The notes beneath the pieces were generated by a model. The model was given only the letters and a program-made list of their open reading frames with translations, was not told the DNA's origin and did no database searches. A stretch of DNA of 64,000 nt from Azolla caroliniana (taxonomy: Eukaryota > Plantae > Polypodiophyta), in the NCBI GenBank assembly GCA_043228905.1, contig JBHGNT010000001.1, positions 7,130,001-7,194,000 of the forward strand, read 5' to 3'. Shown piece after piece: positions 1 to 16,125 of this stretch; position 1 is the stretch's first letter, and every line of letters starts with the position of its first letter. The position numbers and the translations under genes are program-made.

Positions 1-1641
1 GTTTGAATTCGAGATATTCCACCGACCCGGCATACAGCATGCGGTAGCAGATTATTTAAGCCGGTTACATTCCGACGAAACCTGTGACAAAGTACCGGAC
101 GAGTTTCCGAATGCTGAGCTATTTCGAGTCACTGCGGAAACGGCAACAGATGAAACGGTGGCACCAAAAGATAAGTGGCTAACGAATATACACCAATTTC
201 TGAGCACTGGATTGCCTCCGGAGGAGATGAACCGGGACGAGAGGAAGCGCCTGGCGGTACAAAACCGGCACTTCTGTTTATTACAGGACACACTTTACCA
301 CAAAGGTGTGGACGGTATATGGCGACGAGCAGTGCGCAACGACGAGAAAGAGGTAATACTACAGGAAGAACACTACAGAGTCACCGGAGGCCATTATGCC
401 GGGGATGCTACGGTTAGGAAGATATGGCAAAGTGGCCTATGGTGGCCAACTACATTGAAGGACGCAGTCCGGTATGCGAAAGAGTGTGATCTATGCCAGC
501 GAATGGGCCAGTCAACGGAACAAGCTAGGATGCCGCACCAGCCAATACTACCGCTAGAACCATTTCAGAAATGGGGACTAGATTTTGTCAGACCATTTAA
601 ACCACCGGCAATGAGAACTGGCAACCGGTATGTGATCGTCGCGACGGATTACTACACTAAGTGGGTAGAAGCGAAAGCCTTACGAGATAACACCGCGGCG
701 TCAACGACAAAATTCTTATACGGATGCATTTGGTGCCGGTACGAATGCCCCATAGAGTTGATAAGCGACCAAGAGGGCACTTTCTTGGACAGGTAGTGGA
801 GAGCTTGACGTCATTCTATGCGGTAGTTCATAAACGGAGCACCCCGTACTACCCACAAGCCAACGGATTAGCGGAGTCAACAAACAAAACGTTACAGAAT
901 ATCTTGCGCAAGATCGTCAATGAGAATCAGATAGATTGGAACACGAAGCTGCACAGTGTGCTCTAGGCTTACCGGACAACGTACAAAACAAGCATCCAAA
1001 CAACGTCGTTCCGGTTAGCATTCAGATTAGAGGCAGTCATGCCAATCGAATTCCAGGTACCAAGCTTACGGATTCAAATTAGGGAACAACTCAATGAAAA
1101 AGAATCAGAGGCAATTCGGTTAAAGGCTCTGTGTGAGCTAGAGGAACACCGACTGGCGAGCATCATGCACCTGGAATTGGAACAACGGCAATAGAAAGCG
1201 TTTGTAGATCGGCACCGGAAGGGAAACGAGAAAATGTTCGAAATTGGCAAGCCGGTACTAGTGTTCCAGACCCGGATGGGTAAAATGCCAGGCAAACTAC
1301 GGTTAAGATGGACCAGACCATACTGGATCACACACGAGTTCAATGGATCCTACCAGTTAGGGACACTTGCTGGCGAAGTGCAGGGTAAATGGGTCAACGG
1401 ATTTAGACTAAAGCCATACAAAGGACCTATGCCCAAGAACCCATTTGAACGAAGGACCGCCGCCGAATCAGACGCTGGCAGGCCAACCACGACAGCAACC
1501 CGTGAGGAAAAAGGCTACCACGAAGCCGATAAGGGGGAGCACGAGCCGGCAACCAGGGAAAGCATAACAACGGCAAACCGTCAAGAGGCCGGCAAGGTGC
1601 GCGATTCGGGTAAGGGTCCGACAGGACCGGAGAAAAATTAA
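1..1641 (+). pseudogene. Gypsy pol C-terminus (integrase zinc-binding, core and GPY-type domains), disrupted
   Basis: ORF pieces 158-796, 724-966 and 1234-1641 with a frameshift near 780 and in-frame TAG stops. Confidence 0.9.
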
Positions 1642-2986
1642 CCACACAAGTAACTTTACAAAAAAATACAAAAATACAAAATCAAATAAATCATGGAAAG
1701 GAGTGGTGGAAACGGCCATGCAAACGAGGAGTAAAGAGGCACGTCGAAAAGGTACGAGGGGCAATGCTATTATAGTACACAACCTGCACATGCGGAGGCT
1801 CGAAAAAGGCGCCAAGATCCAGAGAGAAAAACCCCCACGCATCGAGACCTTCTCCTATCGCGAACCAAGGAGAACAGACGCAAACAGATGCGTGAAGATC
1901 AATCGCCGAGAGCTCGCACACAGAGAACCCCCTCCCTCAGAACTTTCTCTCTCACACTCTCCCCACCACCAAACCTCGCCAACACTCTCCGACCTCGACG
2001 CAGAGATGGACTGCCAAACGTTGTCTGAAGCCGCCAACAAATGGCTACGGCAGCACGGACTGGAGGGTTTCTTAACGATCATGGAGGCGGTGCCACACAA
2101 GGAGGCCGAAAAGATTATCAAAAAAATCGACACAGAGGTGATCACGGAGGAGGCGATCCGTGCGTTAATAGGCCTTCCGGAGGGAGGCATCTACACGATC
2201 GACAATCCTACCTCCGAGCAACTCATCAAATATTTCGGTGAGTACTCTCTCGCCAACAAGGGCTACAGGACACAGGGCGGCGAAGATATGCTATTCCGCG
2301 AAATTGCCCGTGTGCTCCATGAGTTCGGCCACGTGTACCCTCAACCCCCCGTCATGCCTCAGAACCGAGCAGGCTTGATCATCGCAATGTACGAAGGGGT
2401 CAAGGTAGATTGGCCGGTGTTGATCGCCGATGGGCTGTGTACGGCGATTGATATAGTAAGAGGAAAGGACGGCAAGGAAGGCCGGAAAATATGGCATGCG
2501 GTGACGCAATGGCTCACCCTATTGGCGCCACCGATCGAGCCCGTCCAACCCAAGAAGCGGGGAAGAGCAACGGACGGCACCCCGAATCCTGCTTCGAAAC
2601 GGCAACAGTTGTTGGCCTCCAAGGCCACTAAGGGGAACACGACCGACGCAGAGAAGGTGGCAAAGGAATGCGCAAGCCGGAAGCGGCCGACGGACACACA
2701 CGAGGAGACACCGGCACGGCCCCTGACGAGCCCACTCCACCGACCGGTGCAGCAAGAAACGGACACCTTGGCAGCGAGAATGAATGTCGGGACTCAGGCA
2801 GAGGAAATGGAGGAAGAACCCACGGAACACCTCCAGCGACGGCCGGTGAAGAGCACCACTAAATCAGCCGGGAAGCGTTCGGACCCACAGAAGGATAGAA
2901 CGCCCGCAACTCACGCCAAGGGAGGCACCGAAACCGGTTCGGAGGGAACTGGTCACAGAAGTCCCTGCACAACAGGCAGCACCAGT

Positions 2987-3369
2987 TGTCATGATATGGC
3001 AAGACTCAAACCCATGACCTTATGCTACATGGGTCGAGCTCTTACCATTAGACTATGAATTGTAATTTGTAGGATATTATTTTCATTTATGCTTTATCAT
3101 AGAAAACTGATGTATATTCCAGATCTCGCACAAGGCATTGTTTTGAACCAAATTAGTTCAACGCCAGTCTTAAGCCTCCTTTTATAGTGTTTTTAGGAAT
3201 AATTCTGAAGCTTCTAGAATGTTCCAGAGAGATCTGGAATATACATCAGTTTTCTATGATAAAGCATAAATGAAAATAATATCCTACAAATTACAATTCA
3301 TAGTCTAATGGTAAGAGCTCGACCCATGTAGCATAAGGTCATGGGTTCGAGTCTTGCCATATCATGACA
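2987..3369. mobile_element. 383-bp palindromic (fold-back) insertion with TG..CA ends; solo-LTR-like or MITE-like
   Basis: 141-bp inverted arms 2987-3127 and 3229-3369 with one mismatch; 101-bp spacer; flanks CCAGT/CCGGC (5-bp TSD with two transitions); AT-rich inside a GC-rich ORF. Confidence 0.92.
3180..3224 (-). promoter_or_regulatory. Heat-shock element plus TATA box
   Basis: GAAgcTTCtaGAAtgTTC at 3207-3224 (four in-phase nGAAn units), 20 bp upstream of TATAAAA (3186-3180) on the minus strand. Confidence 0.7.
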
Positions 3370-5201
3370 CCGGCAAGTCCCGTAACTCAGGAGCCGGATA
3401 TACAAAAACCAACCGTCCCAGCCGGCCAAGACCAAGCAGACAAGGGGCGGCTAGCTGAAACACACTCAAAGCCGGAACGGCAAAGGGGTCAGCTAGCAGA
3501 ACATGAAGTGCAGCTCGACACAGTAAGGCGGGACTAGCCACCGGCGAGTGAACCCATTAACCAACCCTCCGTGCAAGCGCAACAACAGTGCACCGGCAGC
3601 CAATGGCTCCGGTGGATAGGAGAACAAATTGCCGGAGTAGTCGGATGCCATAGAGACGGAGGAAAGAGTGCAAACGGAACGGTTGCTCGTCACAACCGAT
3701 GAACTGGAGACGGCCCGGTCAAGGATCCGGTGCCTCAAACAAGACTTGGATCGGATCACGGGAGACATGGCCAAAATGGCCTTAACCGCAACGCATATCC
3801 ATGCACCGGTGACTCGGTTGATGAACAGAGGAATAAGACCCCAGAGACTCAAACTGTCCCGGAGAAAGATGCGGCGCAAGCCCAAGAGCTTGCGGAATTA
3901 CGAGATGAGCTCGCCGCACAAGAAGCATTACGGAGCCGCGAACGCGACTTGAAGAAGGCGGTCGAAGAAGAATTAAAAAAGACTGTTGAAAACCTTCACC
4001 GGGCAGAGGAAAACCTACGTAAAGGACATCATGCTTACGACCGGCTGAAGGAGGAAAAAGAGAAATTGCTGCAGGAAAAAGACAAGCTGAGACGGAAATC
4101 GAGAGGCTGAAGGAAGAGCTCCATCAACAGAAGGACCGGGAGGACCGCGCGCGCCGGCAGATCAACCAAAGGCTGAAGCAGAAGACCGATGATTTCAATC
4201 ATCTGCATCGGGACTACTAGCAGCTGGAGACGGAGTATAAGCAACAACAGGAACGGATGGTTGAGCTCCAGCAAGAAGTTGATAGGGCCACAACGGCACT
4301 CACCGAAGAACGAGCTGAGAGTTCCAAGCTATTGGAGGAAGCGGCGAACGACCAGATGGAGCTCCACAAACAAAACCATGAAGACAAGGAAAGAGCGACA
4401 ATGGTATTACAGAGGTTGCAAACAACCTATCAAACTCAATTGTCGCATTATAGGGAGCAGGAGGTGGACACGGTCCGGATCATCAAGCAATTGAAAGAAG
4501 AGCGACAAGCCGCAGAAAATAAATCACGGATGGGAGCCGAACGGATCCAGTGCATCCTCCGGTCATGGCTCACTAAGACCAAAAGCTTGATTGACGACAG
4601 CTCTGTGCGTTGGTGGGCGAAATGGGTGCAAAATACAGCGGAACTCCAACTACTCAGGGCGGACGTGGAAAACCGGCGGAAGGAGGGCGACGACTGTTAT
4701 ACGCTGACCTCAGAGGACTTCACCACCATAAGGGATGAGCTGGCTAAAGATTTCACAGCCCTGGTGGAGAAACAATTGGTACAGGTTTGGCAGCTCGTAG
4801 CTCAACTGGACGACGATCAGCTGGAGGCTCAAATCCAGTTCGAAAGCTATGAGCAGTCCCGGCTTCGAGAAGAAAAAGCGAGAAAGGCGGCAACGGTCAA
4901 CCTTAGTGATGAGGAACCGTCGTTGGTACTAGGACCAGACGGGGACCAGGCCTGGGTCAGTCAGCCAGAGACAAGTTCAACGAAGGAAACGTCGGTGCCA
5001 GAGCAACAAACGGAGCCGCAGCCCCAAATGGAGGAGGCACAAACGGAGCAGCCACAACCACAAAAGGAACAACATCAACAACAGATTCCCGACGAGCCAT
5101 TGGAAATTTTGGAGCAAAGCATTCTGGACATTTTGGACGAAGCGTAAAAGGGCCGGATAATGGGTTCGACGTACAAGGTACTGTCCCACGGGCGTGCCAT
5201 G

Positions 5202-5662
5202 TGTTACTGGCTGGCAAGAAGGCTTAAGGAGGTCCAAACCAAAGTGTGAAAGGAATAGTTTATTCGGGAACTGTTGTAATTAGTAGTCTTAAAATATATA
5301 GTAATTTATGAGAAGATATGGACGGACGGACCGGAATCGGTATGCCGATCGGGATCCGGACTGATCCCGAAAAGGTGCTTGTTGGCACCATTTTGTATTT
5401 CGCACCGGAGACCTATATAAAGGCCCGGTTACAATGCAATCAAGAGCGGATAATTAATAGAACTTATTGCTTTAATCTTTCAGCATTGATTACCGTTCTG
5501 TGCTTATTATTGTATCTTGCGCATGTTAATGATGTGTTGCTAAGTAATCGATTAAGGTCTCATTAAGCGTTGTGTCGTAAGTCATTCTGTCGTACCACCC
5601 TTTGGTGAAGTGTCTTAAGTGGACACCCTGTGTTAGGCTGTTGTCCGGCCCTAGGATTAATA
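5202..5662 (+). repeat. 3' LTR of the first Gypsy element
   Basis: Begins TGTTA at 5202 (alternative start TGTTG at 5272), has CCTATATAAAGG near 5412, ends ..ATTAATA (decayed AACA) immediately before Copia coding sequence. Confidence 0.7.
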
Positions 5663-8361
5663 GTGGCTGCAGATTCTATGTAACCTTTATTGATGATTGC
5701 TCAAGGAAAACATGGGTGTACTTCATGAAAGAGAAAAGTGAAGTGTTTGAATGTTTTCGTAAGTTCAAATGCATGGTAGAAAAGCAGGCAGGTACAAGAA
5801 TAAAATGTTTAAGATCTGATGGAGGAGGAGAGTATTTCTCCAATGAATTTTCGGATTTTCTATGCAATCAGGGAATAAGAAGATAGTTCACATGTAGATA
5901 TACTCCACAGCAAAATGGAGTTGCTGAGAGGAAAAACAGAACATTGGTGAACATTGCAAAGGCTTTGATGACAAAGAAGAATATGTCATTGTACTATTGG
6001 GCAAAAGCTGTAAATACAACAAATTATATTCTAAATAGATGTATAACATCGGGAGTACATGAAGCAACTCCTAAAGAGTGTTTCTATGGAAGGAAACCTA
6101 GTTTAGAACACTTAAAAGTGTTTGGATGCCTTGCATATGTACATGTGCCTGTAGAAGTAAAAAGTAAGTTGGATCCAAAAGCAGAAAAATGTATTCTTGT
6201 TGGCTATTCAAACGAACAAAAAGGGTATAGATGTTATAACCCTATAACAAAGAAGATTGTGACAAGTAGGGATGTAATCTTTGATGAGTTAGCCAGCTGG
6301 TACAGTCCAAAATAGAATCCAGAGACTGATGAAGACAATGAGATTGAAGACAGAGACAAATTTAAAAATGTAGAAGACTGCAACAGAGATGGAAGCAAGG
6401 TTGGACAGCAAAGTCCAACATCAACAAAATGTTCTGGACCATCAAAAAGCTCAGATGGTAAATCTGATTCGAATTCTTGGAGTGGAAAAAGTGAAGGACA
6501 CAAAAAATATGATGATAAAAAAGGAAAACAAAAAATGCCAGAGTATGAAATGTTGGATGACTTGTCTAAAAACATGGAAGATGAGGATTCAGATATGTCA
6601 TTGGATGATTTTCTTGGTATAAGAAGATTGAAAATCCCTGGTATGGTAAAAGCATTGAAGGATGCAAATAAAAAACTGAGAAGATCAGATAGAGAGAAAA
6701 AAATTGTTGAAAGATTTGGTTATGATACATATATGTCTATGCATTATGCATATATGTCTAAGGTGGTACAGATCCCTGATCCAAGTAGTTTTGATGAGGC
6801 TAAAACTGAGAAGAAATGGGTGGATGCAATGCAAGAAGAGATTGATGCATTGGCTGAAAACAGAACATGGGATTTGGTGAAGTTACCAAAAGGAAAAAAT
6901 GCGGTAGGTTGCAAATGGGTCTACAAGACAAAGCATGATTCCAGTGGGAATGTAAGTAGACATAAAGCAAGATTGGTTGCAAAGGGATATGCCCAAATGC
7001 AAGGAATTGATTATGATGAGACATTTGCACCGGTTGCAAAGATGGCAACATTGAGGACATTACTGGTTGTAGGTGCAGCCAGAAGATGGTTTCTTCATCA
7101 TATGGATGTAAAAAATGCCTTTTTACATGGTAACTTGGAAGAAGAAGTGTATATGTGTCAACCACTAGGTTTTGAAGATAGGAAGCATCCAGATTATGTA
7201 TGTAAGCTGAAAAAGGCTCTCTATGGACTGAAACTGGCACCAAGAGCATGACACAGAGAACTTTCAGATTATCTGAAAAAACTTGACTTCAAAATGTCAA
7301 AGGTTGATTCATCATTGTATGTTAAAAGGAAAGATGATTGTATTGTTGTGATTCTGATTTATGTTGATGATCTCATCATTGGAGGTGATTCCATGGATGA
7401 AATAAGTAAGTTGAAAAGAAATTTGGAAATGCAGTTTCATATGAAAGATTTGGGAGATCTGAGATATTTTTTGGGTATTGAAATCACCAGATCTGAAAGT
7501 GGTATATATGTGTTGCAAAGACAATATGCAACAACTATGTTGAAAAAGTATGGTATGCTTGGATGCAAACCTATTGGAGTACCACTAGATAAAAACTGCA
7601 AATTGAGGGCTGATTTGGGAGCCAAAATAGAAGATGTAAACATGTATAGGTCTATGGTGGGCAGCCTTATTTATTTGACCATAACAAGACCTGATTTGAG
7701 TTATGCATTTGGATTAGTCAGCCAATTTATGCAACAACCAACAAAGCCGCATTTGGACTGCATTAGAAGAATTCTGAGGTATGTAAAAGCTACTCAGAAC
7801 TATGGATTGTTTTATAGGGCTGATTTGGACATAAATCTGGAAGGATATACAGATGTTGATTGGGCTGGAAGCCAAACAGATAGAAGATCCACAAGTGGAT
7901 GTATGTTTACATTGGGAAGTGCAGGTATTTCATGGAGTAGCAAGAAACAAGCTATTGTTGCATTGTCTAGTACTAAAGCTGAGTACAGAGGAGTTGCCAT
8001 AGCCACTTGTGAAGAGGTATGGATCAGAAGATTGCTTGCTGATTTGGGAGAGTATATAGATGGTACTGTCATAATCTGGTGTGACAATATGAGCAACATT
8101 CAGCTTGCAAAAAACCCAGTGTTCCATGCAAGAACAAAGCACATTGAAGTGCATTATCACTTTGTTAAAGAAAAAGTGATTGAAGGAGAAGTTGATCTGG
8201 TGTATGTGAATACAAATCAGCATGTTGCTGATATTCTCACAAAGGGATTGAGTGTGGAAAAGCATACACAGTTTCGGAACATGATGGGAGTTGTAGACAC
8301 TGATATGATGGCTGAAAAGCATCATGGAAAAGAAGTTGTAGATAACCCCAAGAAAGGATAA
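5663..8361 (+). pseudogene. Copia pol (integrase core, RT, RNase H)
   Basis: [43 protein letters not shown] in one frame with three premature stops (about 5884, 6313, 7249). Confidence 0.95.
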
Positions 8362-8379
8362 GTTGAGCTTGAGGGGGAG

Positions 8380-8818
8380 TGTTGAGAAACAAGCTCAACA
8401 TGGTATGTGATGCTTATTGGGAAATAAGCTATAATAGCTATTTAGCTACTTGTGAACAAAAAGGAGAAATAGCTAATTAGCTACTGACAGCTATTTAGCG
8501 ACTGACAACTAATTAGTTGCATGTGTAAGTAACTTATTACTTAGGTTAAAAAGTAAGAGAGTAGGTAAGTAAGAAATATACAGGAAGTAGAACTCTGAGA
8601 GAGAGTGTGAGGATAGAGAGGAAGAACTCAGAAAGTGAGAGTAGAAGAGAGAAACAGACGAGCGCAAGTAGAGCTCTGCGTGTAATGAAATAGAAGAAGT
8701 TTTGGTTGCTACAGAGGTAAGTCTCCTTCCCCCTTCCCTTCTGTGTTTGAGCACCAAACGATCCAACACACCACGATCCGCCGCGCACATAAGAAGAGCC
8801 CGAGTGCCTTCTTCACGT
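8380..8818 (+). repeat. Copia 3' LTR, main part (last 10 bp displaced to 16130-16139)
   Basis: Starts TGTTG right after the PPT; terminal inverted match TCTTAACA appears after the nested Gypsy. Confidence 0.85.
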
Positions 8819-9611
8819 TGTCTAGATATTACGCAAGTGCGTGTGGAAACGAGGCGGGACCGCGGGGGTCTCGAACCAAAGAGCAAGCGAGGGAGGAGGA
8901 AGAGAGAGAACCGGCTACGCAGGACCGGGGATACACAGGGACACGGCCCTTCAGCACGGAGAACGCGAACAGACACCGACACAGACAGATGCGAATGACT
9001 AAATATGTATATTAACAAAAATGGCTAACACGACTACAACCCTCGATGGGGCACAGGTTGGCTACAACCGAACAGGCCGGCGAACAGATGCCGATGCTTG
9101 TTCGCTTCGACGCACAAAGGGGGAGCAGGTCGGAGGTGCTGCCGGAAGCACTCGGGCGTTCCTCGAAACAGCGCGAGCCTCCTCGGAACCCTGCACAGAA
9201 AAGCTATGGAGCTCAAGAAGGAAGGAAACAGAGAGAGAAGCGTCCAGAAACGGTCTGGCAGCACTTCGTCCTCTCTGCGCGAGATGCCTGCAACAGCTCT
9301 TTCTTGCTCCTTATATAGGCTGACGAGCAGGCCGTCATGTCAGCTTTATTCCCTGTCCCTTTTGGACAGGGATCCGCTCCGTTCTTCACGCATCCGCGTA
9401 GTTACGCCGCCGACTCGTACAGTTCCTTAGCTCGCGCGCGCGACCGAAAAGACTGTTCGCGCGGTCTTTGTCTCCACTTGTGTTAGGGCCCGTTCCTGCC
9501 GATTATCCTCCTAATTCGCTTCTATGTACAACTTGGAGCGTGCGCGCGTGAAGAACCGGTTCCCACGCCTTGGTGCGCTGATTCCGCCTATGGACGGTTT
9601 TCTTCACGACA
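8819..9611 (-). repeat. 3' LTR of the nested Gypsy
   Basis: Direct repeat of 15333-16125; next to the PPT AGGTGGGGGCGGA (9624-9612). Confidence 0.97.
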
Positions 9612-9682
9612 TCCGCCCCCACCTAACCGCGCATCCTCCGGTATGCGCCAAGAGAGTTGGGACGGAGAAAACCGGCCCGTCT

Positions 9683-12600
9683 TCATTCCTCACCCGTCGG
9701 TTCTTCCTCGTTTTCGGATCGTTCATCACTGCTGACTAGGAGAGCCGGGTCTGGCTCGTCGTCGTGTCGCTTCTTGAACGCTTTGATCCGCTTCCCTGCA
9801 ACCGGTATCGCCATTCTCGTGCCGTCTAGTTCCGCCAGGTGATATGTCCCGTTGTCATTGGCGCTCCACACCACGTAAGGCCCGAACCACCTTCGTGCGA
9901 ACTTCCGTGTAGCTCGGTGCTGGTTGTCGAGGCTGCTGTCGTAGACGAGCACCCAGTCACCTTCGTCGATTTTCTTCGGTCGGAGCCGGTGCGTTCGGTC
10001 GAACCTGGCTTTGTTCTTTGTCCTCGCCACCCGGAGCTTCTCCGCAGCCAGTTCCACGTCCTCCGGTCTCCGCTCGAGCTGTCGTATACGCGCGGCCAAC
10101 AACTCCTCCCGGCTCATCTCGTCCCTCCAGTCGACCGTTGCCCACGAGGAGATCGTCCGTTCTATCGGCATGATCGGCTTCTGGCCGAACATGAGCTCCG
10201 TCGGCATGTACCCGGTTACCGAACTGTGCGTGGTCCGGTCTGCCCACAAAGCATAAGGTAGCAGCCGCGGCCAGTTACCGACTTGGCCTCCGCATGCTCG
10301 AACCAGCGCCTTGACGATCGGTCCGTGTCCGCGCTCCACCTTTCCATTCGCCTCCACCTTGTACGCAGTGGTGAGCGAGAGCTTGACTCCCAGCCGGTCG
10401 AACAGCTCCGCGGCTTCTTCGGCGTCCAACTCCCCTCGGTCAACCACGATCTTCCCGACGCACCCGTACCGGCATATCACGTCCTCGATTAGGAACCGAC
10501 ATACGGCCGCGGTCGTTTTGTTCGGAAGGGCCCGGCCTTCCACCTGGTTCGTCAGATCCTCCCGCGCTAGGACCAGGTACCGCATCTGTCCTACCCCCAT
10601 TGGCATCGTCACCAGATCTACCATCCATTTGAAGTGGATGGTCGGAGGGTACGTAGGGTGAAGCTCGTCCCGGTGTCGGACCACGGAGTGCATCTGACAG
10701 CTCTCGCAAGTTGTCACTAATCGATGCACGTCCCGGTACAGTCCCGGCCAGCAGTACTTCTCCTTTATCTTCTCGAACGTGGCCCAAGTTCCACGGTGTC
10801 CGGCCCAAGGGCTGTCGTGGTAGGCCGTCAGCAGCTCCTCCTGTTCTTCCTTCATCGCCACCACCCGGAGCGGAGCGCCGTCCCTCTTCTTCGGGTGCTT
10901 CCATAGATAGCCATCCCGGAGAAAGAACCGGTACGCTTTCTTCCGGATCCGGTTGGCCTCGTCTTTCGTCCATGACGCATCCGGCGCCATTGTCCTCAAG
11001 AACCCGCCGATCTGCAGCCACTCCCCGTCGTACTTGCTCGCGTCGAAGTCGTTAAGCGCCGGAGTGCTCGTCCCGCCGGTTGTTACGTATGCTGCCTCGA
11101 AGAAGTCCACGCCGACCTCTTCGTCCTCCGAAACCATGCCGCCCTCGTCATCGAATCTCGCCCTTGAAAGCATGTCGGCCATGGCGTTGTCTTTCCCGGA
11201 AATGTGTCGTATTTCCGGGTCCAGGGACTTGATGTACGCTATCCACCTGAGCATTGCCAGGTCCGGCGTCGCGCATCCGGAAACCATGCCGAGAATCGGC
11301 ATGCAATCCGTCTCTATGATTACCTCTGTCCCGATCAGATAGTCCTTGTCGGCCTTCACCGCCGAAACGATACCCCAGAGTTCGCGTTTAACCTGGGCGT
11401 ATCCTCGCTGCCGCTCACTGAGGACCTTCGCGCCGAATCGGATCGGGAACCGATTGCCGTCCTCGTCTTCTTGGTTGACGACCCACCCGATTCCGGTCGG
11501 ACTCGTGTCAACCGTTATGTACACTGGGGTGCCCTTCCTGTAGACGGCCTTTCGGAGCGCCGGTGCTGCCGAAAGAGCCTCCTTCAGCTTCCGGACCGAC
11601 TCCGTGTGCTTGTCTAGCCATTCGAATCTTCGCCCTTTCTTCAATAATCCGTACAGCGGCTCCGCGACGTGCGCGTAATGCGGGATCCATATGTGGTAGA
11701 AGGCGCATGCTCCCAAGAATCTTCGTACTTCCGTGACCGAGCTGCAATCAGGCTTCATCGCGGAGATGGCTTCTACCTTTGCCGGAGACGGTTTCCGGCC
11801 ATATGGTCCACATAAATGTCCGACCACCATGATTTCCGACTGCCCGAAGGCTGATTTCTCCCCCGAGAAGGTGAGCCTCGCAGCCTCTAGCCTTTGCAGC
11901 ACCTTCTCGCAGTCGTCGATGTGCGTCGCCACGAATCGCCGGCATCCGTCCGGCCCGATCGTCTCGTCCTTTTCTGCTACCGGGCATCCCTTGATCGGGA
12001 TGTCGTCCAGAAACGGCATGGTGATGTCCGGGATGCAGTCCCTCAGAACCTTGTTCATCGCATTCACCATGTGGGCCACCGAGTTGGTCCCTCCTTGCGG
12101 CAGCGTACACATCCGCACTAGGCCGAGGGGAGTTCGCATCGTCGTAATGTCTCTGCTCTCCACGGCTAGCTGGAACTGGTCGTACCCTGAGTATAGATCA
12201 CCGACCGAGTAAATCGACCTTCCGGCGAAGGCCTCCGCGAACTCGTCTATGGTCGGTCCAATCCCTGCGTTCCGAATGGTCACCCTATTGACCGGTTGCA
12301 GGTCCTGAATGAAGCGCAATGATCCGTTTTTCTTTGGTACAGTAAACCATCGGTTTGAATACGGGGCGCTCGACGGCTTGAGAATGCCCATATCAACTTT
12401 CTGCTTCAACAGCTCCATCAACTTCGGGATGTGAGCTCTCGGAACCGGAATTGGCTTGAGATTCCACGGTACATGCGGTACCGTGAATATCACCATCGGC
12501 TCTACGATCGTCGGGTTTACGCACCCGATTTCCTCCGGTGAGAATGCGAAGGCTTTCCCGTGCCTTCCGAGCATTCTCCGAAACCGGTCTTCCTCCGCCG

Positions 12601-13164
12601 GTAGTAGGAACCCGCCCCCACCGATTTTGAGCTCCCGGAGCGTCTCGTTGGTGAAGGTGTGTCCTATACAGGCCGGATCTCGTAAGCTGGGGTCCGATGC
12701 AACCCCTTTGATTCGCGACTCGCTGCCCTCCGGTAACGGTACCGCGACTGGCCTTACCTTCCGGTCCACAGTCTTGTACTTGGTGCTTACTCGGGCCGTC
12801 CGATCCGACTCGAGCCCCCGACCAAAGTCCGCGATGACTTCGTACATTTCTTCGGAACATACCGGTATCGTCCGGTCTTCGTTAAGGTCTTCTTCGACTA
12901 CCTTCCCCAGCATTCCCAAGGTGTCGTCGAAGGAGACCGCCTCCACGGCGCCACTGATTTCTTCGTCAGGGCCGAGAACTCCGCACGCTCGAAGTCTCCC
13001 CTCCGTCTTTGTTTTCTCTCGGCCGGCGATGCCGACCATCGTACATGCTCCGCTGTCGGAGAAGCAAAATTTCCTACCTATTGTACACGGTTTTATCGTA
13101 CAGATGTGGGGTTTTCCCGGAGCATCCGGACTGTCGCGGCCCCACGCCTTGGCAGTCCTCTCTA
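9683..13164 (-). CDS. pol: Pol (RT, RNase H, integrase), probably reached by -1 frameshift from gag-PR
   Basis: Uninterrupted frame from the GGATTTT site through the 1118-aa ORF: DLYSGYDQ, LPQG, FLDD, TVDTS, AMADMLSR, H..H..CESC, GKVERGH, WFGPY. Confidence 0.93.
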
Positions 13165-15288
13165 AAAATCCTCTCGGTTTTCGGAACCGAGGGAGTCGCG
13201 GTTACGTTCGTGGTTCGGCCGTACCGTCAGAAACTGGACCGAATGGCGCCCGTCTTGGCTTTTGACCCTCGCGTAGGCCGAACCATTGTCCAGCACCTTG
13301 GTCTCCATTTGCGCCGCCGTGATGTACGGCTCTCCCAGTATGACCGGATGCGAAGACGTCTCCTGCACGAAGAAGTGCTGGTCAATCTCGACGTCGCCGA
13401 TCTTGACTCGCACATTCGGACAGGCCCCGTGCAGTTCCTCGGTGGCGCGCGTTGCTGCCCTTATTTTCCACCCGTGCTTGGTGTTGATCGGCCATTTTCC
13501 CTTCTTATAGAAGTCCATGGACATCAAATTGATCTCCGATCCGTAGTCCACCAAAGCTATCACCGGTTCCTGGACATCGCCGATCTTCACCGGGGTTTCC
13601 GTGGTCGCTCGGGCCCAGTGTGGTCTCGAATAGTGGCTTTCCGCTCACTCGTCTCCCAGCGCCATGTCGTCTAGGTGCGTCGTCCGCACTTCCACCGGTC
13701 TTTCCGGTTCTGTCTCCGTTGACAGCCTCTTCCGTTTCACCAAGTCCACGATGGAGTCGTGGAACTCCTTCTTGGCGATTCCCAGCACCTCTCGTAACGA
13801 CAGCTCCACCTTGCTATCGAGGATCCGTTCCTCCAGGACCTTTCGTAAGTCCGTGGTCCTTTCTATCTCCGTCCCAAGACGGTACCCGCCCTTCTGGGGT
13901 TTATCTTGCGTACCGGCCCCGCCGGCTTCGTCCCGTCGTGGCCCGGACCGGGTCTCGTATCGTTGTGAGGGCCCGGTCGTCCCGGGTTTCCCCACCCGCT
14001 TCTCTTCTACCAGAGCCTCGTAGTTCTGGCAAGCGGCTTCCACGAAGCCCGTCTTTTCCTCGACCGGGTCGCTCCACCCGGTCATCTCCCGTACCCGTTT
14101 CTCCGCACGGTCCGATTCCTCCCTTTTAAGCCTTGCACCGGCAAGGCCTTCCAGCATTGTCGGCCAGAATCCGGCTTTGCTTTCCCTTCGGGCCTCGCCG
14201 CCCCCGACTCGAATGCCGGCCGACGCCGAGTAGTGGACGGTTTTCGCGTGTCGGGCCGCCGCCTCTTCCATCAACCTTTTCATACCACCTCGCCCGTCGT
14301 TTCGGCTCAGGGCCCTTCGGGTGTCGCTGGCATGCACCCGTCCTTCCCACAGGTACACCACCCTGTTCCTCAGCGCCTCCGCGAAGTCGCCGCAGTCCTT
14401 CCGAATGTGGCCGACTTCATCGCACCACATGCACCTGTTTCCTGCCGCCGGCCGTCGGTCACGAGCCGGTTCGCCACCTTCCCTTCGGGCTTGCGCGATT
14501 TGGAGGTCCTTTATCGCCCTCGTCAATTCCTCCAGCGCCGCTCCTCCGGTTGAGCCTCTGACTACGCCGGTCGAAGCCGAACCGGTTTCCAACCATTCTC
14601 GGGTCTCTTCCTTTCGCACCTGTGGCGCTGGTTCGAGCTTCCTTGCTGCGACCGAGCCCGACCCGGTTGCCCCGTTATCCGCCCATTCTCGCCGTTTGTC
14701 GAAACGGCCACAGACTTTCTTGACAGCCGCCCAGTCGGTAGTGAGCCCGTCTTCGGTTTCCAGCAAGAGGCCCACTTGCTCCCGATCCCGCTCGTCGACC
14801 GACTTCACAAACAGCAAGACCCGGCTCGTGTCCAGGATGGTTCGGTCGAGCGCCGAAAGGCGCGCAAAGTTTTCCTCGAACTCCCGGAGGAGTGCCGACG
14901 CGTTTCTTCCCTTCCCCGGGGACTCCACCCATTCCATGAACCTTCGCTTCGAAAGCTGGAGCGCGTCGTCCAGCCCGTATTTCTCTAGGAGCCGACCTTC
15001 GAACTCCTCCCAGGTACGGCTCTCCGCCCGCACCTCGAGCACCTCCGCATGGATGCTCGGCATCGCCACTCGGGGAAATCCGGCAAGACGCCTTTCTTCC
15101 GGAATGTCCCGCATCAGCATCTCTGCACCGTAGGACGCCAAATACTTCGTGGCATCCTTCCCATCGAACCGGCCGATCGTGCCGACGACCGCCTCAATGG
15201 CTCTGTCGAGGGCACCGGTGCCCTCGCGCGCGTTTACAATCCGGTCCACGGCCGAAGCCATGGCCTCTGCAAGATCCGACCCCCTCAT
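13162..15288 (-). CDS. gag: Gag-protease (CX2CX4HX4C knuckle, aspartic protease) with one in-frame TGA at 13645-13647
   Basis: CMWCDEVGHIRKDC; LVDYGSEINL and VILGEPY; ORFs 13645-15315 and 13162-13590 share a frame (GDE*AESH, likely TGG>TGA). Confidence 0.88.
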
Positions 15289-15310
15289 CTTCTGCTCTTC
15301 TGCCGCCTCC

Positions 15311-15328
15311 TTCACGTTGGGTTCACCA
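15311..15328 (-). promoter_or_regulatory. Primer-binding site complementary to tRNA-Trp
   Basis: Plus strand TTCACGTTGGGTTCACCA matches the plant cytosolic tRNA-Trp 3' end (TTCACGTCGGGTTCA-CCA, from memory) at 17/18; 4 nt from the LTR. Confidence 0.85.
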
Positions 15329-15332
15329 GAGA

Positions 15333-16125
15333 TGTCTAGATATTACGCAAGTGCGTGTGGAAACGAGGCGGGACCGCGGGGGTCTCGAACCAAAGAGCAA
15401 GCGAGGGAGGAGAAAGAGAGAGAACCGGCTACGCAGGACCGGGGATACACAGGGACACGGCCCTTCAGCACGGAGAACGCGAACAGACACCGACACAGAC
15501 AGATGCGAATGACTAAATATGTATATTAACAAAAATGGCTAACACGACTACAACCCTCGATGGGGCACAGGTTGGCTACAACCGAACAGGCCGGCGAACA
15601 GATGCCGATGCTTGTTCGCTTCGACGCACAAAGGGGGAGCAGGTCGGAGGTGCTGCCGGAAGCACTCGGGCGTTCCTCGAAACAGCGCGAGCCTCCTCGG
15701 AACCCTGCACAGAAAAGCTATGGAGCTCAAGAAGGAAGGAAACAGAGAGAGAAGCGTCCAGAAACGGTCCGGCAGCACTTCGTCCTCTCTGCGCGAGATG
15801 CCTGCAACAGCTCTTTCCTGCTCCTTATATAGGCCGACGAGCAGGCCGTCATGTCAGCTTTATTCCCTGTCCCTTTTGGACAGGGATCCGCTCCGTTCTT
15901 CACGCATCCGCGTAGTTACGCCGCCGACTCGTACAGTTCCTTAGCTCGCGCGCGCGACCGAAAAGACTGTTCGCGCGGTCTTTGTCTCCACTTGTGTTAG
16001 GGCCCGTTCCTGCCGATTATCCTCCTAATTCGCTTCTATGTACAACTTGGAGCGTGCGCGCGTGAAGAACCGGTTCCCACGCCTTGGTGCGCCGATTCCG
16101 CCTATGGACGGTTTTCTTCACGACA
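15333..16125 (-). repeat. 5' LTR of the nested Gypsy
   Basis: Direct repeat of 8819-9611; CCTATATAAGG TATA on the minus strand near 15825. Confidence 0.97.

What the first reader, a model, noticed from the sequence alone, without database searches (positions are those of the whole stretch)
2987..3369. Palindromic LTR-like element: 141-bp mirror arms around a promoter
Seen: TG..CA ends, a 5-bp TSD-like flank (CCAGT/CCGGC), arms 140/141 identical, and clean interruption of a host ORF. Read on the minus strand it has LTR layout: upstream region, HSE, TATA, then A-rich polyadenylation-like signals and ..ATGACA. The upstream and downstream portions are reverse complements of each other. Known: LTR integrases leave TG..CA ends and usually 5-bp TSDs, but normal LTR terminal inverted repeats are only a few bases. 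Inference: either a solo LTR of a family with self-complementary LTRs, or a minimal element with two identical integrase ends (Ginger-like or parasitic on LTR integrase). The arms are better conserved than the TSD, which hints at arm-to-arm conversion. I know no named family with this layout.
Basis: partly seen in the sequence, partly recalled or inferred. Interest (0 to 1): 0.85.

Follow-up and report, generated by a model that had tools for sequence, protein, structure and literature searches.

The report
Snap-back LTR with two U3 ends
This single-copy 383-base mirror sequence is the front half of a common jumping gene's terminal repeat joined to its own reverse copy and flanked by a five-base target duplication; with a second such palindrome elsewhere in the genome, it likely records a recurring copying error of self-priming retrotransposons, not a new element family.

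Summary
The palindrome is real (arms 140/141) and the 5-bp duplication is real: 24 of 24 empty host sites show no DNA lost. It is not a new family. It derives from the 424-bp LTR of an abundant Ty3/gypsy chromovirus (3,556 U3-end matches) whose primer site fits self-priming, as in Tcn1/Tf1. In LTR numbering it is s1-141 + s195-245 + reverse(s191-1): two U3 ends, no U5, PBS or PPT; both junctions are single copy. The strand switch lies at the base of a natural 54-nt hairpin. It is not alone in kind: 24 sites (23 distinct) begin at s1 and switch strand exactly at the 12-nt self-primer/PBS complement; 11 have a matching 5-bp duplication, and one (L092) is a 656-bp palindrome with two U3 ends and a perfect duplication. 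The window element equals that form minus two deletions. Best reading (0.7): plus-strand DNA mis-primed on itself during reverse transcription and integrase inserted the two-U3 product. Rival: a replication template switch in a solo LTR. Arm-to-arm conversion is not needed. Nine literature searches and two look-ups in the scan's notes found no description; key Tf1 papers were not readable.

The parts
2982..2986 (+). Left copy of the 5-bp target site duplication (two transitions from the host site)
2987..3127 (+). Left arm: parent LTR U3, s1-141, sense; starts at the PPT-side (U3) integrase end
3127..3128 (+). Junction 1: loss of s142-194 (53 nt: heat-shock element and TATA) from this arm, no microhomology; single copy
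3128..3178 (+). Parent LTR s195-245, sense: most of a natural 54-nt imperfect hairpin (s192-245)
3150..3161 (+). Predicted self-primer sequence of the parent (s217-228, 33 nt after TATA), complementary to the parent's PBS; one change here
3174..3178 (+). Junction 2: strand switch at a 5-bp microhomology (s241-245 pairs with s192-196); single copy
3179..3369 (-). Parent LTR U3 s1-191, intact, on the minus strand; ends at a second U3 integrase end
3180..3186 (-). TATA box of the parent LTR
3207..3224 (.). Heat-shock-element-like array (alternating nGAAn units); function untested
3229..3369 (-). Right arm (s1-141)
3370..3374 (+). Right copy of the target site duplication, same as most host copies
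1..5660 (+). Host: a different, decayed Ty3/gypsy element (integrase piece, long extra ORF, 3' LTR at 5202-5660; 5' LTR about 1.1-1.6 kb upstream of the window)

Best explanation
The element is a single-copy, two-U3-ended fragment of a chromovirus LTR, likely made when plus-strand DNA mis-primed on a self-complementary LTR sequence during reverse transcription, and likely inserted by the parent's integrase. Shown: its three pieces, both junctions, the missing U5/PBS/PPT, the 5-bp duplication, the parent family, and 23 other distinct insertions that start at s1 and switch strand at the self-primer/PBS complement, one of them a second two-U3 palindrome. Inferred: plus-strand DNA that starts at the PPT (s1) paired with itself or with a second plus strand, either at the s192-245 hairpin or PBS against self-primer, and was extended back to s1, giving a short duplex with a U3 end on each side; integrase joined both U3 ends 5 bp apart; a 53-nt deletion (and, if it passed through the 656-bp L092 form, a 220-nt deletion between two 5-bp repeats) shortened the centre. 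It lacks the signals to move again and would be a dead-end fossil; read-through from the host element would give a 141-bp-stem hairpin RNA against the family's U3 (untested).
For: Piece map s1-141 + s195-245 + reverse(s191-1). Switch at the base of a hairpin that beats 1000 of 1000 base shuffles. Parent has gag, PR, RT, RNase H, integrase, chromodomain, PPT before s1 and a PBS complementary to s217-228; Tcn1 elements are predicted to self-prime (PMC6317226, passages). 24 matches to the primer/PBS switch, control 0; 11 of 23 distinct sites have a 5-bp duplication with at most one mismatch at an LTR-type far end, so the switch likely predates integration. L092 = s1-228 + reverse(438-1), exactly the extent of plus-strand strong-stop DNA folded back, perfect duplication. 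First antisense piece stops at s228-242, near the predicted RNA 5' end, in 6 of 23; L111 runs on through s1 into the PPT, as a minus strand would. Ty1/Ty3 make and displace repeated plus-strand strong-stop DNAs (PMC5371799, passages). Window element maps onto L092's other strand as two deletions. A rare variant (s121) is on both arms, as a copy of one source would give.
Against: The window element's own junction is not the recurrent primer/PBS one and occurs once; no undeleted hairpin snap-back was found. Its stage of origin is inferred from relatives, not shown. The LTR's U3 and U5 ends share five terminal bases, so a genomic template switch could return at the same spot. No donor copy with the s121 variant and the element's haplotype was found among 3 other carriers. 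11 of 23 strand-switch sites have no resolved far end, one matched duplication lies in a CT microsatellite (L099), and BLAST end points are approximate. No reads of this individual were available.
Confidence: 0.7

Rival explanations
1. A normal solo LTR was inserted first; later a replication template switch left the template at s245, copied U3 backwards to s1 and returned at the U5 end by the shared five terminal bases, replacing s246-419; a deletion followed.
For: Four-point template switches that create inverted repeats are described (PMC5453318, passages). Microhomology exists at both the exit (5 bp) and the return (5 bp). The private s121 variant on both arms and more changes per base in spacer and duplication than in arms (2/101 and 2/10 vs 1/282) fit a later copying event.
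Against: Needs a 186-nt switch that ends within five bases of the LTR end; that paper treats short events and found no sign of intra-strand ones. Arms vs spacer is not significant (p=0.17). L092 contains the PBS, which a solo LTR lacks, so two-U3 insertions arise in this family without this route.
Confidence: 0.17
2. Integrase used the U3 ends of two separate cDNA molecules; host repair then joined their inner ends at the quasi-palindrome.
For: Gives two U3 ends and a 5-bp duplication. L096 shows a 5-bp duplication with a far end that is no LTR end, so host-finished integrations occur in the family.
Against: Needs loss of about 5 kb from each of two molecules and both to carry the rare s121 variant; does not explain the exact strong-stop extent of L092.
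Confidence: 0.07
3. A mobile non-autonomous family, MITE or Ginger-like element with long terminal inverted repeats, or a family with self-complementary LTRs.
For: Long inverted arms, TG..CA ends, 5-bp duplication, small size.
Against: Both junctions single copy; only this site has U3 facing U3 at a 335-365 gap; every base maps to a known-type LTR whose other copies are ordinary.
Confidence: 0.03
4. Assembly or library fold-back artefact.
For: Palindromes are a known artefact class (own knowledge); no reads of this individual were laid.
Against: Flanks on both sides continue the host element in register with an exact 5-bp duplication; the arms differ at one site; the inversion stops at the LTR end and does not mirror flank.
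Confidence: 0.02

Closest known systems
Tcn1 / Tf1-sushi chromoviruses (Neumann et al. 2019, PMC6317226; Tf1 self-priming as summarised in bioRxiv 10.1101/2022.12.06.519325)
   Same: The parent has Ty3/gypsy domain order, a chromodomain, 5-bp duplications and a PBS complementary to the start of its own R region.
   Different: The window element is only a rearranged U3 half; two-U3 insertions and primer/PBS strand switches are not mentioned in the passages read.
Solo LTR
   Same: LTR-only, TG..CA ends, 5-bp duplication (e.g. L015 is a normal one).
   Different: No U5 end; U3 doubled in inverted orientation; two internal junctions.
Displaced plus-strand strong-stop DNA of Ty1/Ty3 (PMC5371799)
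   Same: L092 has the same extent (U3-R-U5 plus 12-14 nt primer copy).
   Different: In tRNA-primed elements its 3' end has no complement in the LTR; in a self-primer it does, so it can fold back.
Four-point template-switch mutations (PMC5453318)
   Same: Inverted repeat created by switches at short microhomologies.
   Different: Described for short genomic events; here 186 nt or more, bounded by integrase ends.
MITE (e.g. microhomology-miniaturised Tc1/mariner derivatives, PMC3814204, abstract start only)
   Same: Short, long inverted termini, non-coding.
   Different: Comes from an LTR retrotransposon, single copy, no transposase partner.

Membership tests
Solo LTR of an LTR retrotransposon | TG..CA ends and 4-6 bp target duplication | tested here: met
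Solo LTR of an LTR retrotransposon | Colinear U3-R-U5 matching the family's LTR | tested here: not met
   s246-424 absent, U3 doubled and inverted
Family with self-complementary LTRs | Paired LTRs of full elements are themselves long palindromes | tested here: not met
   L057, L058 and 28 top hits carry ordinary 424-447 bp LTRs
MITE / non-autonomous TIR element | Many dispersed copies with the same ends and interior | tested here: not met
   1 match each for both junctions and for the end-to-end pattern
MITE / Ginger | Ends shared with a DNA transposon or Ginger element encoding a transposase | tested here: not met
   ends are the U3 end of a reverse-transcriptase-encoding element; no search for Ginger elements was run
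TRIM / non-autonomous LTR element | Two direct repeats with PBS and PPT between | tested here: not met
   repeats are inverted; no PBS or PPT in the piece map
Tcn1 chromovirus (parent) | gag-PR-RT-RH-INT order with C-terminal chromodomain | tested here: met
   on L057
Tcn1 chromovirus (parent) | PBS complementary to the predicted RNA 5' end (self-priming) | tested here: met
   12-nt complement starting 33 nt after TATA; the RNA start itself is predicted
Tcn1 chromovirus (parent) | RT/INT phylogeny inside the Tcn1 clade; aromatic cage in chromodomain | not tested
   no tree built, motif not examined

The most novel reading that the evidence does not exclude
Self-priming LTR retrotransposons carry a built-in flaw: because their PBS complements their own R region, plus-strand DNA re-primes there, so a steady fraction of insertions are strand-switched and some are palindromes with two U3 ends that integrase accepts in vivo. 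Such insertions would be self-made hairpin-RNA sources that can trigger silencing of the whole family. The window element is a trimmed member of this undescribed class.
Probability: 0.45. Interest if true: 0.68.

Novelty: new variant of a known kind. Interest (0 to 1): 0.48.

Why it matters
The element alone is a dead-end curiosity. The class behind it matters more: genome fossils that likely show a Ty3/gypsy integrase inserting a substrate with two U3 ends at correct 5-bp spacing, and that point to an error route peculiar to self-priming elements. It gives a direct test (compare self-primed with tRNA-primed families) and a candidate origin for inverted-repeat loci that could start small-RNA silencing of a family with thousands of copies. 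It also warns that such fragments will be mis-annotated as MITEs.

Tried and rejected
Wide-gap search for all U3-facing-U3 pairs could not be run; only gap windows 335-365 (1 site), TATA-to-TATA 30-60 and inner-arm 140-170 were scanned, so other two-U3 elements of other sizes may exist. Among the first 100 of 3,556 listed U3 ends only this site has a facing pair within 1 kb (read by eye). Public runs: no RNA holder listed; best DNA share 0.46; no listed contig of 4 runs spans the element's junctions, which proves nothing. Contigs of 3 of 4 runs lie across the primer/PBS junction of L092 with only 11-21 letters on each side of the shared 12, below the tool's 31-letter rule: a weak hint only. 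Donor search by the s121 variant found 3 other carriers, none with the element's haplotype. Three primary papers asked for by id were not held (one id was recalled), so published Tf1 cDNA-end data were not seen. Literature searches; none listed a paper describing two-U3 insertions or primer/PBS strand switches (titles and abstract starts seen; passages read for four papers; no supplements opened, and REXdb supplements of PMC6317226 may name the parent family). Rejected: nested opposite-orientation insertion (as at L024) because both arms are the same age and the duplication flanks the whole; arm conversion as a need.

Full report
Observation. The inverted repeat is as described: arms 2987-3127 and 3229-3369, 140/141 complementary, 101 nt apart, with TG..CA ends. 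In 24 of 24 uninterrupted copies of the host element that I aligned, the two flanks overlap by exactly 5 bp, so no host DNA was lost and the 5-mer was duplicated; the left copy has two transitions at CG and CHG positions, each also seen in uninterrupted copies. The host is a separate decayed Ty3/gypsy element; its long extra reading frame crosses the site in other copies but is already shifted here by a 14-bp deletion upstream.

What it is made of. A genome search returned many partial matches but no other full palindrome among 40 scored of 2,453 candidates. The partial matches are 424-447 bp LTRs of one family. A full-length copy (L057, 5,660 bp) encodes gag, protease, RT, RNase H, integrase and a chromodomain, has a PPT before the end that the window element carries twice, and a PBS after the other end. 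Numbering the LTR in sense from that U3 end, the window element is s1-141 + s195-245 + reverse(s191-1). It has two U3 ends and no U5, PBS or PPT. The U3 end motif has 3,556 matches in the genome, while each of the element's two junctions has one, as does the end-to-end pattern at this size.

The junctions. The strand switch lies at the base of a natural 54-nt hairpin (s192-245, -11.7 kcal/mol as DNA, 0 of 1000 base shuffles as low), where s241-245 pairs with s192-196. The other junction drops s142-194 from one arm with no microhomology. Inside the hairpin, s217-228 starts 33 nt after the TATA box and is complementary to the parent's PBS. That is the layout of self-priming in Tf1/sushi and is predicted for most Tcn1 elements of non-seed plants (PMC6317226, passages; bioRxiv 10.1101/2022.12.06.519325, passages). 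I did not build a tree, so Tcn1 is a fit by features.

A recurrent class. One fetched copy (L068) switched strand exactly at that 12-nt complement. A pattern for this junction gave 24 matches, reversed control 0; L113 repeats the flank of L104, leaving 23 distinct sites. All begin at or near s1, run to s228, then read PBS and U5 backwards. Ten end in a normal U5 with a 5-bp duplication of at most one mismatch (L090, L095, L098, L099, L101, L102, L103, L104, L105, L108; L099 is in a CT microsatellite), often after several internal jumps; L092 ends in an inverted U3 with a perfect duplication; L096 has an exact duplication at a non-LTR end; 11 have no resolved far end. L092 is 656 bp, s1-228 + reverse(438-1), arms differing at 4 of 216: read on the other strand it is plus-strand strong-stop DNA whose PBS end has paired with the self-primer sequence and been extended back to s1. 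In 6 of 23 the first antisense piece stops at s228-242, near the predicted 5' end of the RNA after primer cleavage, and L111 continues through s1 into the PPT and integrase region like a minus strand; I ran no significance test on these end points. Ty1 and Ty3 prime repeatedly at the PPT and displace the first strong-stop DNA (PMC5371799, passages), which would supply such free plus strands (inference for this family).

Mechanism. Most likely (0.7) the window element arose in the same way: a plus strand starting at s1 paired with itself or a second plus strand and was copied back to s1, giving a duplex with two U3 ends that integrase inserted. Either the pairing was at the s192-245 hairpin, or the L092 form lost 220 nt between two 5-bp repeats; the element maps onto L092's other strand as exactly that deletion plus the 53-nt one. 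No undeleted hairpin form was found. The main rival (0.17) is a replication template switch in an ordinary solo LTR (model in PMC5453318, passages), possible because U3 and U5 share their last five bases; it cannot be excluded for this copy, but it cannot make L092 from a solo LTR, which lacks a PBS.

Arm conversion. Since formation the arms show 1 change in 282 bases, the spacer 2 in 101, the duplication 2 in 10. The raw arm-versus-duplication contrast is significant (p=0.003) but vanishes on CG/CHG sites (1/12 vs 2/9, the 9 counted by hand; p=0.55). Ordinary LTR pairs differ at 0 and 3 sites over the same 141 bp, and 5 of the 11 duplications above carry a mismatch. One rare variant (s121) sits on both arms, in 0 of 48 other copies aligned and at 3 other sites genome-wide with other haplotypes; it fits copying from one source, a later genomic switch, or conversion.

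Function. The intact U3 on the minus strand keeps a heat-shock-element-like array and TATA, so it could drive antisense-U3 RNA; read-through from the host would fold into a 141-bp stem (about -270 kcal/mol). Both are untested.

Known or new. It works like an aberrant reverse-transcription product and fails membership as solo LTR, MITE, TRIM or a palindromic-LTR family. Nine searches listed no description of two-U3 insertions or primer/PBS strand switches, but primary Tf1 and Ty1 papers were not held, so this is not proof of novelty. The scan's own notes had nothing on it. Verdict: real feature, first reading partly right, new variant of a known kind, interest 0.48.

Noticed in passing
L092 (G000:C4, around 19,609,700-19,610,370); L090-L113: 23 distinct insertions of the parent family switch strand at the self-primer/PBS complement; L092 is a 656-bp two-U3 palindrome with perfect 5-bp duplication; several others are scrambled by multiple internal jumps yet bounded by a duplication.
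   Followed up: partly
L096 / L119 (G000:C22, near 2,410,150): Strand-switched insertion with an exact 5-bp duplication although its far end is not an LTR end: possibly a one-ended integration finished by host repair.
   Followed up: no
window 5150-5201: The host element has no purine tract before its 3' LTR (5202); the sequence there looks like a tRNA 3' part ending in CCA, two bases before the LTR, as in earlier scan notes on a PPT-less lineage in this genome.
   Followed up: partly
L024 (G000:C4:12817262-12820492): A young solo LTR sits directly against an older (82%) LTR piece of the same family in opposite orientation: nested insertion giving a look-alike head-to-head layout.
   Followed up: no
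window 5661-8823 and upstream stretch L059: A Ty1/copia element (LTRs 96% alike) into which the host element (LTRs 92% alike) is inserted; the inner element looks older than the outer by LTR identity.
   Followed up: no
window 8819-16125: Young Ty3/gypsy element on the minus strand, 793-bp LTRs 99.4% alike, long open pol frame.
   Followed up: no
window 3006-3039 and its mirror (LTR s20-53): A second strong hairpin close to the U3 end of the parent LTR; role unknown.
   Followed up: no
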